Assembly: GCA_026770705.1 (NCBI GenBank)
Contig: JANJGN010000012.1
Coordinates: 29,946,001 to 30,010,000, forward strand
DNA from: Isurus oxyrinchus
Taxonomy: Eukaryota
Direction: 5' to 3'
DNA: 64,000 nucleotides
Shown here: piece after piece, positions 1 to 42,000 of the stretch
How positions within the stretch are numbered: position 1 is the first letter of the stretch
How the letters are laid out: each line of letters opens with the position of its first letter
Made by a program: the position numbers

Positions 1-3000
1 TGTTGTTTCAACATGGCAAGCTATGTTACTAATTTTCATCATCTGGGCCTGCTAAGAAGTTGATTATTTGGCCAGACTTTTAGAATGTTATTCCACATTT
101 TTTGTGTACTCCCTTAAGCCTATCACCTCTTTTAATAACAGCAGCAACAGAAACTTCAACTGGAAGTACACAGACATCCACAGCAGCTGAAAGTACAATA
201 GCACAAACTACAGTGAGCTCCACTGAAACATCAATAACTGAAACAACAACAGCCACTACTCCATTCCCATCACCAAGTGGTGAGTATACGTAAGCACCCT
301 TTCCAGCTATAACCTTCTCAGACCAGTCAAATGCAGGAATGTATAAACACATAAAGAAATGTGAGAAATTATACTACTCGTGGATTGTTGGCTAGAATGA
401 TGCATTAGACAATTGTGCCCTCATGGCTTTTGGTGTTATACCCTCATTAAAACGAATTTCCGATACATTACTCAGGATCTTCCATTAATTATCGGATTTA
501 ACAAATCATAGAGCATAACCTTTGTGCAAAACCTTTGATATACTCTCCATGTTCACTGCTTACCTCGATAAAACATTGCCTGTTTGAATGTTGGCAGCAG
601 AAACATCGTCTTCAAGTACACAGACATCCATGGCAGCACTGACCTCTACGTTTGCTCCTCCCTCAACAAGTGGAACAGCATCAACATCCACCGCAGGCTC
701 TACTGAAGGGTCAACAACTGAAGAATCGACAGTCACTACGTCACTCCCAACAACAAGTGGTGAGAATACAAAAGCACTCTTTGCATGCATTCCATTATGA
801 ATTCATTCAAACTGCTGGGAGATAGACTCACGTACCCAAAAGCTATTGAAACTTTACAGTAGTATGTTGTTGTTATCATTTCTCAGAGTTAATGTTATGT
901 CAAATAGTCTTGGTACAATTCACAATTCCCGGCCATGTTATCAATCTTCATGTCTTTCAGCAAATGCGAGTTCCAATGAAATGTGGGGCACAAATTTCAT
1001 TCAAAGACTTTAATATATTGTTCCATCCATTTCAATTCCCTGAATAACATTGTATCCCTTCTTCAATCACAGCGGCACAAGCATCTGCAACAAATACACA
1101 GACGTCCACAGTAGCACTTACCTCTTCATCAGCTTCTGCCTCAACAAGTACAATAGCACCAACATCAACAGAAACATTGACATCCGAGGCATCGACAGTG
1201 ACAACCTCACTACCTTCATCAAGTAGTGAGTATCTGTGTGCTCTCTAATCAGTTCTAATATTCTGATTCCTTTCACCTACTGAATGTTGAGAAACAGACA
1301 ATGGACTTGGAAGAAAAGAATACAGCATGATGTTGGTCGTGAATATGCAGAGTAGAATAACATGCAAATGCCATTGTTTTGATTAATGCTTTGCAACATG
1401 GACATTCATTACTTGCTTTCCATATTTGACGAAGAAGGGAACTTTTCAGCTATGATATAATGATGTTGTTCCAGGCATTATGTATACCCATTCAGTCTAT
1501 ATTCAATTTTAATTATAGCAACTGCAGAAATTTCAACTGCAAGTACACAGACATCTACTACAGCACACGTCACCACATCAGCTCCTGCCTCAAGCAGTAC
1601 GATATCATCGAAAATTGCCGGGAGCTCTACAAAAGCATTGACAACTGCAGTAACATCAATCACAACATCAATCCCTTCAACAACTGGTGAGTATATGAGT
1701 GCTGTCTTAACAATTTGACCATCCCTGATCCTTCCAACCCACTCTGAGGTTTAAAAGACTAAATTGGAGACCTGTCAAACGATTCTCGCAAGGTGCTGGC
1801 TACAATTGCCCCAAATAGAATAATGCGCAGATGAGATTTGCTCAGTACTTTTATTTCAACATGGAGAGCTATGTTACTAATTTTCATGAGCTGGGAGTTC
1901 TAAGAAGTTGATTTCTTGGGCCACACTTTTAGAATGTTGTTCCAGGCTTTTTGAGTGCTCCCTTAAGCCAAACACCTCTTTTAATATCAGCAGCAACAGA
2001 AACTTCAACTACAAATACACAGACATCCACAGCAGCAGAAACCGCGACATCAGATTCTGTCTCAACAAGTGCAACAGTACAAACTACAGTGAGCTCAACT
2101 GAAACAACAATAACTGAAGCAACAACAGCCACCACTCCACTCCCATCAACACGTGGTAAGTATACAAAAGTACACTTTGCAGACATTACATTCTCAGTCC
2201 AGTCAAAATGCAGAAATGTACAAACACTTAAAGAAATGTGAGAAATTATTCTACTCGTGTATTGTTGGCTAGAATGATGCATTGGACAATCATACACTCG
2301 TGACATTTGGTGAAATGCCCTCAGTTAAAATGAGGCTACGATACATTACTCAGGAGCTTCCATTATTTCTCAGTTTTAACAAAATATAGAACATAACCTT
2401 TGTGCAAAAGCTTTGATATACTCCCCATGCTCTCTGCTTACCTCAATAAAACATTACCTGTTTCGACGATAGCAGCAGATACATCATCTTCAAGTACACA
2501 GACATCCACGACAGCACTGACCTCGACATCAGTTCCTGCCTCGACAAGTGGAACAGCATCACCATCCACCACAGGCTCTACTGAAGGGTCAACAACTGAA
2601 GAATCAACAATCACTACATCACTCCCAACAACAAGTGGTGAGAAAATGAAAGAACTCTTTGCTACCATTTCATTACGAATTCATTCAAACTGCTGCACGA
2701 TATAAACACGTACACATAAACTATTAACACATGACAGGAGTATTTTGTTGTGAGAATTTCCCAGTGTTCATGTTATGTGAAATTGTCTTGGAGCTCAAAT
2801 GCAGTCACAATTCCCGGCCACGTTATCTTTCTTAATGTCTTTCAGTAAATGCAAGTTCGAACAAAAAGTGTGGCATATAAATTGTTAAAAAAACTTAAAT
2901 ATATTGTTCCATTCTATTCAATTCCCTCAATAAGAATATATCCCTTTTTCAATCCCAGCAGCAGCAGTATCACCAACAAATAAACAGACATCCACCGCAG

Positions 3001-39000: not shown

Positions 39001-42000
39001 TCCTGCCTCAACAAGTACGATAGCATTGAGAACTGCAGTGATATTAATCACAACGTCACTCCCTTCGACAAATGGTGAGTGTATAAGTGCTGTCTTAAGA
39101 TTTCGACCATTTTTAATCATTCCAGCCCACTCCGAGGTTTAAAAGCCGAAATTGAAAATATATCAAATGATTATAGATTATAGCATGACGCTGGCCTAAG
39201 TGGAATAATGCACAGATGAGATTTGCTCATTACTGTTTTTTCAACATGGTTAGGTATGTTACTAATTTTCAAGGTATGAGAGTTCTAAGAAGTTGATATT
39301 TGGGCTAGACTTTTAGTATTTTGTTCCATGCTTTTTGTGTACTTCCTTAAATCTATCACCTCTTTTAATAACAGCAGCAACAGAAACTTCAGCTGCAAAT
39401 ACACATACATCCACAGCAGCAGAAACCTCAACATCAGCTTCTGTCTCAACAAATACATTAGCGCAAACAACTACAGTGAGTTCCAATGAAGCATCAACAA
39501 CTGCAGCAACAACAGGCACTACTCCACTCCCATCAACAAGTGGTGAGTATATGAAAACACGCTTTGCAGCCATTCCATTATGAACCCTTTCAAACTGCTG
39601 AAAGGTAGAGGCATGTACACAAAAGGTATCAAAAAATTACAGGGGTATTTTGTTACCTATAATTTCCCAGGGTTAATGAGATGTTAAACACTCTTGGTAC
39701 TTTAATGCTGTCACAATTCCCGGACATGTTATCTTTCTCATCTTGTTCATTATATGTGAGTTTTGACAACAATTAGAGCACAATTATCATTCAAAAACCT
39801 TAATATATTGTTCCATTCTTTTAATTTCCCTCAATGACAATATATCCTTTCTTTAATCACAGCTGCAGAAGCATTGACAATAAATACACAAATGTCAACA
39901 GCAGCGCCGACCTCTACATCAGCTCTTGCGTCAACAAGTAGATTAGCACCAACAACTGCAGCAACTGCACCTGAACCATCAACGACAATGACAACTTCCC
40001 TCCTTTCAACAAGTAGTGAGTTCACAAGTGCTTTCATATTAGTTGTATCTTTCTCATTCTTTTCAATATTTTGCAAGTTTATAAATATAGAATGGGAAAG
40101 TAGCACAAGATTATAGTATAATGTTGGTATAGGATGTTTGTAATGCCCTTGACTTTGACTAGAGGCACTGGATTCAAGTCCAACTCCAGGACTTTTTAGC
40201 TTTGGATGGAGCTTTCATATTGCAGTTCAGTAGGTTGATAATCAGCCTGCTAATCCTTCTAACACTTCCCACTATTCCCCAAAGAGGAAAAAGTGTGTGT
40301 GAAGATAACAAACAAACTAACTTCTGCCGTATCTTGGAGGGTGGGTCATTGATGGAGCAGTTGAAGATGGTTGGATCTAGACATCACCCTGAGGTTAGTG
40401 AGATGTAAGTATGCAGATTAAAGCATTGCAGCATATGTGATGGTGAGGTGAGGCTATGATTATGAGTTATAAATCTTGGCTGATGCTAATGTAGCAGTTA
40501 AAATCTGAGAGTAACAATTCCATGATTAAGATTGATGATACGCATACTCCACATTCTGCTTTTATACCTCATGGGGTCAAGGTCATTGTTGTAAACGTGT
40601 TTAGGTGCCTGCAGAACTAGTGGTCCTGCAGGGGCACCCAACAGCAGAAAGGATATGCTTTTGGAGTGCCCCCTCCACCAACCCTCTGAAAGGGAAAATC
40701 CAGCGCTTGTCAGCCCATTAAGGACCATAGTGGTAATTTGTGTGTGGAACCGGAAGACGTAGGTAGGGTTCTAAATGAATACTTTGTATCAGTGTTCACA
40801 AGTGAGAGGAACGACATGGGTATGGAAATCAGGCAGAAGGACTGTAATATAACTAAAGAAATTAGCATAGAAAGGGAGGAAGTTCTGGAGGGAGGAGTAA
40901 TGGTACCACACTGGCTGTCCTCCAGTCCGCTGGCACCTCTTCTCTGGCCAGAGAGGTATTGAAAATTATTGCCAGTGCCCCTGCTATCTCCTCCCTTGTC
41001 TCACTCAACAGCCTGGGATATATTTCATCCAGGCCTGGACATTTATCTACTTTTCAGCCTGCCAGACCACTCTGTAATGTAATGAGAAAATAGCTACCAG
41101 AAATTTAAAGAAGTTCTGAGGTTAAATATATTCAATCTCTTCTAGCACTTGCAGCTCAGTGCTTACTTCCTATCATTGGGTTGAACAGCAGAATATGAAG
41201 CATATCCAGAGAGTTCAGGAACAACCCCTTTCTCCCACCACCACTCCATGTACAGCGTTAACTGTCAGGACATGGGGAACTGGGCAGAGAAACATCCACC
41301 TTGAATCTGGGGTATGTGAATTGAATGAGTACAAGTTTGGCAGAGCTGGTGTATGCTCCAATATTAAATCCCCATACCTCATATTGTGTCAACAGCGGAA
41401 TTCTACCCCTTGCTCACCTCACGCAGCAATTTCATAATCTGAAGGTAAAAGAAAAGGGTGACTGTTGGATGCATGAATATTTGTGTAACAGTCTTGAATG
41501 TTCTATTTTCTGCAACAGAATCATCATCTATTGTGACACCATCAGGAAGAGAAACCCCTTCTACATCCATTCAAATCTCAACAAATGTACATGCAACAAG
41601 CTCAGCAGTGCTGGTGACCACCAGTGAAGCAGCCACAACACAAACAACCAGCCCAATGACAGGTACAGGCAGGAACAACATTGAGATGTATATTTATGTA
41701 GCAAAGTTCTCTCAATTATTTTGATCTTTGTCAAAGAAGTGTGTTTTTGTACCATCATTTGAAATGTTTTCCATTTTTGTAATTTGAAATATCTGTGATA
41801 TTTTGAACTCATAGAGTCATAGAGGTCTACAGCACAGAAAAAGGCCCTTCCGCCCATCGAGTCTGCGCCGGTCAAACAAGTACCTAACTATTCTAATCCC
41901 ATTTTCCAGCATTAGGCCCATAGCCTTGTATGCCATGGCATCACAAGTGCACATCCAACTACTTCTTAAATGTTATGAGGGTTTCTGCCTCTACCACCCT

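What the first reader, a model, noticed from the sequence alone, without database searches (positions are those of the whole stretch)
142..40015. Giant mucin PTS domain built from ~85 interchangeable symmetric cassette exons
Seen: nearly every ~480-bp monomer holds an AG..GT exon of 135-168 nt, a multiple of 3, phase 1-1, with an open S/T/A/P frame and no Cys. Together they could add roughly 4,500 aa within this window alone. Known: mammalian mucin PTS domains are usually one or a few huge exons; multi-exon PTS cassettes are described for chicken MUC2 and Xenopus FIM mucins, so the principle has precedent, but I do not know of it at this scale in a MUC16-like gene. Inference: any subset of exons can be skipped, duplicated or deleted without a frameshift, so this could be a length- and glycan-tunable mucin diversified by both splicing and recombination.
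Basis: partly seen in the sequence, partly recalled or inferred. Interest (0 to 1): 0.85.

Follow-up and report, generated by a model that had tools for sequence, protein, structure and literature searches.

The report
Shark MUC16 mucin domain in 85 mini-exons
In the great white shark's MUC16-like gene, the sugar-carrying mucin region is split into at least 85 small, frame-compatible exons copied in tandem as a five-exon block, an unusual but not unprecedented way to build a very long mucin.

Summary
Between 142 and 40015 there are 85 tandem ~480-bp monomers, all on the + strand. Each holds an AG..GT exon of 123-168 nt, a multiple of 3, phase 1-1, and stop-free only in that + frame. They total 13,824 nt = 4,608 codons, with 0 Cys and 57% Ser+Thr.

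The window is great white shark. The first 86 residues of RefSeq 'mucin-16-like' XP_041061456.1 are identical to window 57091 onward. The array's frame runs on into two three-exon MUC16-type SEA modules, with about 10 more cassettes between them.

The same ~54-residue cassettes sit head to tail in gene models of five other shark species.

The array is a five-exon higher-order repeat with four-exon and six-exon variants. One chimeric exon marks an in-frame crossover.

Exons change about as fast as introns, yet 0 stops arose where about 6 were expected.

Best reading: these are real coding mucin exons amplified by unequal recombination. Recombination is shown. Splicing-based length tuning is untested, and the species' own gene model omits the array.

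Multi-exon mucin domains are already known from chicken MUC2 and Muc13 and from Xenopus. This is a new variant of a known kind, of moderate interest.

The parts
142..40015 (+). Main array of 85 PTS cassette exons (123-168 nt, phase 1-1) separated by 288-333 nt introns; the array continues upstream of the window
18582..20962 (+). One canonical five-exon higher-order unit (types E-F-B-C-D; exons 18582-18746, 19067-19228, 19550-19714, 20035-20199, 20491-20658). The array has 11 such units, one six-exon unit (E-F-F-B-C-D) and four four-exon units.
16723..18581 (+). Four-exon variant unit. It has a 138-nt A exon (E-type with a 27-nt in-frame loss), then a chimeric exon at 17178-17339 that is F-like at its 5' end and B-like from mid-exon on, then C and D.
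38022..40015 (+). Diverged 3' edge of the array: five cassettes, one of them 5'-truncated with its donor lost (38520-38642)
41519..41662 (+). Pre-SEA PTS exon (144 nt, phase 1-1), 72% identical to the segment just before the first SEA motif in the Heptranchias model
42423..43784 (-). LINE reverse-transcriptase ORF (RVT_1, E = 1.1e-26) inside the intron between the array and SEA-1; further fragments lie at 40.5-41.1 and 43.8-44.3 kb
45091..45251 (+). SEA-1 exon a (161 nt, phase 1 to 0)
45337..45404 (+). SEA-1 exon b (68 nt, phase 0 to 2)
48328..48491 (+). SEA-1 exon c (164 nt, phase 2 to 1); best solved-structure match is Mucin-16 SEA
49002..49028 (+). 27-nt linker exon (YHES... motif, phase 1-1), as found after SEA units in the shark models
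50767..55824 (+). Second, older cassette block between SEA-1 and SEA-2, with 11 profile matches. Seven are intact (50767-50928, 52144-52308, 53302-53469, 53986-54150, 54779-54913, 55211-55366, 55672-55824). One has an acceptor shifted by 6 nt (52864-52998). One has donor GT changed to AT (51144-51329). One has an in-frame stop (51697-51855). One is a fragment (53598-53720).
56866..57026 (+). SEA-2 exon a (161 nt), followed by GCAAGT, so a GC-AG intron if used
57115..57182 (+). SEA-2 exon b. The RefSeq model XP_041061456.1 starts at an ATG at 57091 in the preceding intron and reads through into this exon.
63348..63517 (+). SEA-2 exon c (170 nt), identical to residues 32-87 of XP_041061456.1
58600..62168 (.). 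3.57-kb GC-rich insertion in the SEA-2 b-c intron, absent from the paralogous SEA-1 intron

Best explanation
This is the mucin (PTS) region of the great white shark MUC16-like gene, a membrane-tethered mucin with repeated SEA domains. The region is not one giant exon. It is written as a tandem array of small symmetric (phase 1-1) exons, each coding one ~54-residue Ser/Thr-rich, Cys-free cassette.

Four or five old cassette types became a 2.38-kb five-exon unit. Unequal crossing-over then amplified that unit to at least 85 exons (4,608 codons). Because every exon is a multiple of 3 in the same phase, crossovers in introns or in register inside exons add or remove cassettes without breaking the frame.

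Shown: the anatomy, frame continuity into the SEA exons, the recombination footprints, depletion of stops, and the same cassettes in other sharks' gene models.

Inferred: most exons are spliced into the mRNA. The product would then be a densely O-glycosylated rod of micrometre order, taking about 0.25 nm per residue from general knowledge. It would stand on SEA modules and a membrane anchor and form an epithelial glycocalyx.
For: Identity and context:
- The first 86 residues of XP_041061456.1, 'mucin-16-like [Carcharodon carcharias]', equal window 57091-57182 and 63349 onward.
- SEA halves hit Pfam SEA on single exons, below the cut-off. Exon c hits solved Mucin-16 SEA structures at E = 1.7e-5.

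Frame logic:
- Cassettes are phase 1-1.
- SEA exons run 1 to 0, 0 to 2 and 2 to 1, summing to 393 and 399 nt.
- The linker exon (27 nt) and the pre-SEA exon (144 nt) are also 1-1.

Constraint:
- 0 stops against 6.1 expected among 197 exon substitutions (P = 0.002).
- Substitution classes were syn 62, to-STAP 60, other 73 and stop 0, against expected 55, 51, 83 and 6 (chi-square P = 0.019).
- Splice dinucleotide columns had 1 change against 4.6 expected.
- Both internal exon indels, 12 and 3 nt, are multiples of 3. Only 1 of 11 intron indels is.
- Between old types, exons are 69% identical and introns 61%, with shuffled baselines of 53% and 51%.

Other species:
- A profile of 43 single-exon peptides, run against 1.84 billion representatives, found only 3 proteins, all shark models. 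They are Chiloscyllium GCC29307.1 (14 stretches, 5e-61), Rhincodon mucin-16-like (7 stretches, 1e-44) and a Mustelus model (2 stretches, 1e-12).
- A local search shows the cassettes head to tail and in register with the window's exon limits in 5 models.
- Chiloscyllium and Rhincodon cassettes pair one to one in a tree, and window cassette 54779-54913 pairs with Chiloscyllium 1069 at 99/95 support.

Recombination:
- Unit variants.
- F/B chimera with the switch inside the exon.
- Blocks 90-96% identical.
Against: - No transcript data were reachable.
- The only gene model of this species that I found begins at 57091. It omits both cassette blocks, SEA-1 and SEA-2 exon a.
- A single cassette searched against proteins of 98-2000 residues gave no hit.
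- SEA-1 exon c had no 100% match either.
- Within types, exons vary as much as introns (pi 0.02-0.086 against 0.035-0.078), and the dN/dS-like ratio is 0.84. Constraint is therefore limited to frame, stops and composition.
- The other species' proteins are predictions whose RNA support I could not see.
- F-type acceptors have weak pyrimidine tracts.
- Two of 85 main-array donors are lost, and 2-3 of 11 distal cassettes are dead.
- The stop test counts distinct variants as independent events.
Confidence: 0.7

Rival explanations
1. One reading: the array is a length- and glycan-tunable mucin. Subsets of the interchangeable exons would be skipped in a regulated way between tissues or states, on top of copy-number change by recombination.
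For: All exons are phase 1-1 and no exon-to-exon junction can make a stop. Splice sites differ by type: B and F donors are GTGAGA and F acceptors have weak tracts, while E and D sites are near consensus. Precedents exist for in-frame PTS exon skipping in chicken MUC2 (PMC3549977) and for splicing-based polymorphism in Xenopus FIM-C.1 (PMC7177656). Lang et al. raised the same idea for chicken Muc13 (PMC1552070, abstract and passages).
Against: Nothing here measures splicing. Symmetric phase is equally expected for constitutive repeated exons. In Chiloscyllium and Rhincodon the cassettes are kept one to one, which fits stable constitutive exons.
Confidence: 0.25
2. The array is mostly a non-expressed satellite of exon-plus-intron units lying in a long intron. 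Few or none of the 85 copies would reach the mRNA, and their intact look would reflect youth and homogenisation.
For: The RefSeq model of this species omits it. Exon diversity is about equal to intron diversity, and the dN/dS-like ratio is 0.84. The array has satellite-like higher-order structure with a decaying edge.
Against: Given the 197 substitutions that did occur, stops are missing (0 against 6.1) and splice dinucleotides are spared (1 against 4.6). Blocks are 4-10% diverged, so they are not brand new. Older, non-homogenised cassettes at 50.7-55.9 kb mostly keep frame and sites (7-8 of 11). Homologous cassettes are spliced in models of five other species.
Confidence: 0.15
3. The copy number is an assembly artefact, with the repeat either over-expanded or collapsed.
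For: Tandem arrays of 90-96% identical 2.4-kb units are hard to assemble. The array runs off the window start.
Against: There is no N in the window. The 94 modelled cassettes give 76 distinct peptides. The unit order is irregular, with 4-, 5- and 6-exon units, rather than a simple stutter.
Confidence: 0.1

Closest known systems
Mammalian MUC16 (CA125)
   Same: Both are membrane mucins with a long PTS region followed by repeated SEA modules. The window's SEA exon c matches solved Mucin-16 SEA chains best. The annotated continuation has about eight SEA-type units and a hydrophobic C-terminal segment (reading). Splitting the SEA unit into small exons plus a short linker exon resembles the five-exon human repeat unit; that point is recalled from O'Brien et al. 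2001 and not checked here.
   Different: In human MUC16 the huge N-terminal PTS region lies mostly in one giant exon (recalled, not checked here). In the shark it is at least 85 plus about 10 mini-exons. Here the PTS cassettes also sit between SEA modules in long runs. Orthology was not tested by synteny or phylogeny.
Chicken Muc13 PTS domain (Lang, Hansson, Samuelsson 2006, PMC1552070)
   Same: [quoted passage not shown] The authors proposed length control by alternative splicing (abstract and passages).
   Different: It is a different gene, with a single SEA domain. The chicken array was incomplete because of an assembly gap. No higher-order multi-exon unit was described in the passages I read, and exon phases are not mentioned ('phase' occurs 0 times).
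Chicken MUC2 PTS and Xenopus Otogl / FIM-C.1
   Same: Chicken MUC2 has 69-residue PTS cassettes spread over exons 32-45, and one in-frame alternative splice removes 165 residues (PMC3549977). Xenopus Otogl has a multi-exon mucin domain (PMC5789918). FIM-C.1 is polymorphic through alternative splicing (PMC7177656).
   Different: These are gel-forming, Cys-domain mucins, not SEA mucins. They have about ten cassettes, not 85 or more, and no reported higher-order repeat of exon-intron units.
Coding tandem arrays of multi-exon units (LPA kringle IV-2, nebulin and titin PEVK repeats)
   Same: A multi-exon unit is repeated in tandem, so recombination changes protein length in frame. This comparison is from general knowledge and was not tested here.
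   Different: Those encode folded or elastic modules. Here the product is a low-complexity O-glycosylation scaffold under much weaker sequence constraint.

Membership tests
MUC16-type SEA-repeat membrane mucin | Several tandem SEA domains of the MUC16 type | tested here: met
   Two three-exon SEA modules lie in the window. Single exons hit Pfam SEA at E = 0.004-0.014, below the cut-off because each exon holds only part of the domain. Exon c hits Mucin-16 chain 8gkl_E at 1.7e-5. The annotated continuation P0003 matches Mucin-16 SEA structures at 1e-14 to 1e-16.
MUC16-type SEA-repeat membrane mucin | Large Ser/Thr/Pro-rich region N-terminal to the SEA repeats | tested here: met
   4,608 codons, S+T 57%, S+T+A+P 76%, 0 Cys. 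Pro is only 4.9%.
MUC16-type SEA-repeat membrane mucin | Transmembrane segment and short cytoplasmic tail | tested here: inconclusive
   These lie outside the window. A hydrophobic C-terminal stretch is seen only in XP_041061456.1, whose first 86 residues equal the window. No topology tool was run.
MUC16-type SEA-repeat membrane mucin | Orthology to mammalian MUC16 by synteny or phylogeny | not tested
   No vertebrate genome collection was available. The name 'mucin-16-like' is the source's own.
MUC16-type SEA-repeat membrane mucin | PTS region carried by one giant exon, as in mammals (recalled) | tested here: not met
   85 plus about 10 exons of 123-168 nt.
Multi-exon PTS mucin domains (chicken Muc13 type) | [quoted passage not shown] | tested here: met
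   One ~54-residue cassette per exon. The cassette limits coincide with the tandem units in other sharks' models.
Multi-exon PTS mucin domains (chicken Muc13 type) | cDNA or EST support for the splicing | not testable with these tools
   No transcript data were available. Only predicted proteins of other species could be seen.
Satellite DNA with higher-order repeats | Tandem monomers organised in multi-monomer units, homogenised, with diverged edges | tested here: met
   The intron-type string shows 11 five-exon, 1 six-exon and 4 four-exon units plus a diverged 3' edge. Blocks are 90-96% identical.
Satellite DNA with higher-order repeats | Non-coding | tested here: not met
   Stops and splice-site changes are depleted relative to the intron spectrum. 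The frame is continuous with the SEA exons.

The most novel reading that the evidence does not exclude
The great white shark lineage has turned a handful of old MUC16 linker cassettes into a coding 'exon satellite' of 85 or more near-identical symmetric exons. That would be far more than the 2-14 cassettes seen per run in other sharks' models. The number of cassettes in the mature protein would vary between individuals by unequal crossing-over, and between tissues by exon skipping, giving a glycocalyx of adjustable height.
Probability: 0.2. Interest if true: 0.7.

Novelty: new variant of a known kind. Interest (0 to 1): 0.5.

Why it matters
Mucin domains are usually described as single giant exons whose length changes through repeats inside the exon. 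Here the repeat unit is a block of five exons with their introns. That puts mucin length under two controls at once, recombination and possibly splicing.

It also shows why such genes are under-annotated. The species' own model starts in an intron downstream of about 4,600 codons.

The locus offers a test bed with copy-specific variants: the 94 modelled cassettes give 76 distinct peptides. These could show how the spliceosome handles long runs of near-identical exons.

It also bears on whether the giant single PTS exon of mammalian MUC16 arose by intron loss from an ancestral cassette layout, or whether the shark layout is derived.

Tried and rejected
- A single cassette (28975-29139) searched against longer proteins of 98-2000 residues gave no hit. 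The tool warns that this is weak evidence.
- I looked for a model of this species covering SEA-1. Exon c's best hit was 84%, to the SEA-2 copy, and there was no 100% match. Proteins over 2000 residues were not covered by that tool. The profile search has no length limit and found none from this species. A model hidden inside a 50% cluster cannot be excluded. P0004 has 8 cassettes and was also not listed.
- I considered the reverse strand as coding and rejected it. One antisense frame is open in 84 of 85 exons, but it would lack AG/GT sites and would code Val-rich hydrophobic runs.
- Rfam and tRNA scans of the whole window found nothing.
- The ORF at 60212-61081 (-) in the GC-rich insertion had no Pfam family beyond noise and no homologue.
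- No terminal inverted repeat was found at the insertion ends.
- Literature searches for a description of shark MUC16 or its cassette exons found none in the held library. 'Symmetrical exons' with 'mucin' found 0 papers.
Reading passages of the MUC2 paper showed the precedent is real.
- Not done: the exons were never joined into a spliced coding sequence or protein for a search or a fold. All searches were exon by exon or on an alignment with one exon per row. Whole-protein features such as the signal peptide, total domain count and a whole-length model stay unchecked.
No other shark genome could be compared at the DNA level.
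Full report
**What is there.** The window has no N. Tandem Repeats Finder reports 478-486-bp periods across the first 38 kb. Base composition is uniform (GC about 0.40, negative GC skew) up to 40 kb and changes after that.

A nucleotide profile built from eight seed exons with 40-nt flanks finds 96 matches, all on the + strand. Of these, 85 lie between 104 and 40054 and 11 between 50732 and 55851.

For 85 of 85 main-array matches there is an AG..GT interval at the expected place that is a multiple of 3 and stop-free in phase 1-1. 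My script asked for those properties, so the independent checks matter more:
- The boundaries are homologous from copy to copy. 82 of 85 donors are GT[AG]AG at the same position. One is GTTAGA. Two have GT mutated to AT, with an in-phase GT three bases upstream.
- In the type-wise alignments, the four splice dinucleotide columns carry one change where 4.6 were expected from intron variability (P = 0.055).

Exon lengths are 123-168 nt, with 165 nt in 43 of 85. Introns are 288-333 nt. Together the exons make 13,824 nt, or 4,608 codons, with no Cys, 57% Ser+Thr and 76% Ser+Thr+Ala+Pro.

The phase-1 frame has stops in 0 of 85 exons. The other two + frames have stops in 85 and 72. One antisense frame is open in 84 of 85, but it has no splice sites and would code hydrophobic Val-rich runs.

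**Which gene and organism.** Downstream ORFs resemble SEA domain halves (Pfam SEA, E = 0.004-0.014 on single exons). A search with the 54-residue exon at 48329-48490 returned nine shark and ray proteins. Eight are named mucin-16-like by their source. The ninth, from Mustelus, is 'uncharacterized protein LOC144479697'.

The first 86 residues of XP_041061456.1 (Carcharodon carcharias) are letter-for-letter the translation of window 57091-57182 and 63349 onward. The window is therefore great white shark, not human.

That model begins at an ATG inside an intron. It leaves out everything upstream: both cassette blocks, SEA-1 and the first exon of SEA-2. The same exon matches solved Mucin-16 SEA structures best (8gkl_E, 1.7e-5).

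**Gene map in the window.**

| Feature | Coordinates | Length, phase |
|---|---|---|
| Cassettes 1-85 | 142-40015 | phase 1-1 |
| LINE fragments, minus strand (RT ORF 42423-43784, RVT_1 1e-26) | intron between array and SEA-1 | intronic |
| Pre-SEA PTS exon | 41519-41662 | 144 nt, 1-1 |
| SEA-1 exon a | 45091-45251 | phase 1 to 0 |
| SEA-1 exon b | 45337-45404 | phase 0 to 2 |
| SEA-1 exon c | 48328-48491 | phase 2 to 1 |
| Linker exon | 49002-49028 | 27 nt, 1-1 |
| Second cassette block | 50767-55824 | about 10 cassettes |
| SEA-2 exon a (followed by GCAAGT) | 56866-57026 | 161 nt |
| SEA-2 exon b | 57115-57182 | 68 nt |
| SEA-2 exon c | 63348-63517 | 170 nt |

Every junction keeps one frame. 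The three SEA-1 exons sum to 393 nt and the SEA-2 exons to 399 nt, so a whole SEA module is itself a phase 1-1 unit.

The two SEA regions, introns included, are 78-84% identical segmental copies.

**Architecture of the array.** Clustering the 84 introns gives the following string:

ABCD EFBCD EFBCD EFFBCD EFBCD EFBCD EFBCD ABCD EFBCD EFBCD ABCD EFBCD ABCD EFBCD EFBCD EFBCD EFB GHIJ

The array is therefore a five-exon higher-order repeat of about 2.38 kb. There are 11 canonical units, one six-exon unit, four four-exon units and a diverged 3' edge.

Large blocks are 90-96% identical to each other.

A is an E exon with a 27-nt in-frame loss. The exon after A is a chimera. Its diagnostic sites are F-like through the upstream intron and the first third of the exon, then B-like for the rest. 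This is the footprint of an unequal crossover inside an exon that kept the frame and removed one monomer.

Between the old types, exons are 69% identical on average and introns 61%. The shuffled baselines are 53% and 51%.

**Is it under selection as coding sequence?** Within types, exons are as variable as introns (pi 0.02-0.086 against 0.035-0.078). The dN/dS-like ratio against the intron mutation spectrum is 0.84. The amino-acid sequence is therefore almost free to drift, as expected for a glycosylation scaffold, and this counts against any strong-constraint claim.

What is constrained is the frame:
- Among 197 distinct exon substitutions, 6.1 stop-creating changes were expected and none occurred (P = 0.002).
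- Replacements that stay within S/T/A/P are slightly enriched (60 against 51), and the four classes differ from expectation (chi-square P = 0.019).
- The two internal exon indels are 12 and 3 nt. Of 11 intron indels, only one is a multiple of 3.

Caveats apply. Distinct variants are treated as independent events. Homogenisation could spread or erase variants. The numbers are modest.

The older, non-homogenised block at 50.7-55.9 kb gives an independent view. Of 11 matches, seven keep homologous AG, GT and frame, and one uses an acceptor shifted by 6 nt in phase. One has lost its donor, one carries an in-frame stop, and one is a fragment. Cassettes can die, but most have not.

**Evidence from other species.** A profile of 43 single-exon peptides, one exon per row with nothing joined, was scored against 1.84 billion representative proteins. 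It found only three, all shark gene models:
- Chiloscyllium punctatum GCC29307.1: 2,575 residues, 14 stretches, 5e-61.
- Rhincodon typus mucin-16-like: 7 stretches, 1e-44.
- A Mustelus asterias model: 2 stretches, 1e-12.

In a local search the cassettes lie head to tail, one to three residues apart. This is in register with the window's exon limits. The counts are Heptranchias 8, Rhincodon 7 plus 1, Mustelus 2 and Chiloscyllium 14.

In the Mustelus model the order is SEA exon c, YHES linker, two cassettes, then SEA exon a. This is exactly the splicing pattern predicted here.

The pre-SEA exon is 72% identical to the Heptranchias segment that ends just before the first SEA motif. E-values in that call come from a ten-protein database without composition correction and are descriptive only.

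A tree of 46 cassettes is based on 54 columns, and many forks are unresolved. It pairs Chiloscyllium and Rhincodon cassettes one to one with strong support. It pairs window cassette 54779-54913 with the last cassette of the matching Chiloscyllium inter-SEA run (99/95). Heptranchias cassettes cluster by species.

These proteins are predictions. I could not see their RNA support.

**Mechanism.** The shown steps are the symmetric exon design, frame continuity with the SEA exons, amplification as a multi-exon unit, in-frame crossover products and avoidance of stops.

The inferred steps are inclusion of most exons in the mRNA, dense O-glycosylation of the 57% Ser/Thr product, and a barrier or glycocalyx role like that of MUC16 in mammals.

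Exon last bases are G (71) or A (14), and the first two bases are CA, TG, CG, TA or CT, so no exon-to-exon junction can form a stop. Whether cells exploit this by skipping exons is open.

**What is known.**
- Multi-exon PTS domains are described for chicken Muc13. There each exon is one repeat and alternative splicing was proposed (PMC1552070, abstract and passages).
- In chicken MUC2 the cassettes span exons 32-45, and an in-frame splice variant removes 165 residues (PMC3549977, passages).
- Xenopus Otogl has a multi-exon mucin domain (PMC5789918, passage).
- FIM-C.1 is called polymorphic through alternative splicing (PMC7177656, passage).
- The current human MUC16 model is a large N-terminal domain, 19 SEA repeats and a C-terminal anchor (PMC10829539, passages).
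- That the human N-terminal region is one giant exon, and that each human repeat has five exons, is recalled and was not seen in a call.

Searches for shark MUC16 or for its cassette exons found no description in the held library. A shark skin-mucus proteomics paper lists mucin-5B and mucin-2-like but not MUC16 (PMC10707392, passages).

**Left out.** Whole-protein properties therefore remain unchecked. No vertebrate genome or transcript collection was available. The metagenome and viral contig collections and the paper supplements were closed.

**Verdict.** Recombination-driven diversification is supported by visible footprints. Splicing-driven diversification is untested.

This is a new variant of a known kind. 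It is notable for its scale and for the higher-order exon-intron repeat, and it is apparently missing from the species' annotation.

Noticed in passing
window 57091-57182: The RefSeq model XP_041061456.1 starts at an ATG inside the intron before SEA-2 exon b and reads through the acceptor. The basking shark model starts with a near-identical N-terminal sequence (MQPF... vs MQHF...), presumably at the equivalent position. This looks like a shared annotation truncation in front of repeat-rich upstream sequence.
   Followed up: partly
window 57027-57032: SEA-2 exon a is followed by GCAAGT instead of GT. This may be a GC-AG intron. The SEA-1 paralogue has GTATGT at the same place.
   Followed up: partly
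window 58600-62168: A 3.57-kb GC-rich (0.55) insertion lies in the SEA-2 b-c intron and is absent from the SEA-1 paralogue. It has G-rich 18-54-nt tandem repeats at 59277-59561 and minus-strand ORFs of 289 and 215 aa. The 215-aa ORF has a weak Myb/SANT-like hit (E = 0.054). No homologues and no terminal inverted repeats were found.
   Followed up: partly
window 40500-44300: LINE fragments lie in the intron between the cassette array and SEA-1. A 453-aa reverse-transcriptase ORF sits on the minus strand (42423-43784). Shorter pieces with similar sequence lie on both strands at 40690-41053, so the insertion looks nested or rearranged. The conserved pre-SEA exon at 41519-41662 sits between the fragments.
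   Followed up: partly
window 598-601 and other F-type and hybrid acceptors: Tandem NAGNAG acceptors (for example gcagCAG) occur at many F-type and hybrid exons. They would allow a one-codon difference at the exon start.
   Followed up: no
window 45721-46089, 47228-47940, 55931-56137, 62233-62460: Short Pro- or Gly-rich open stretches recur in the SEA-region introns. They are probably copies of an interspersed repeat and were not classified.
   Followed up: no
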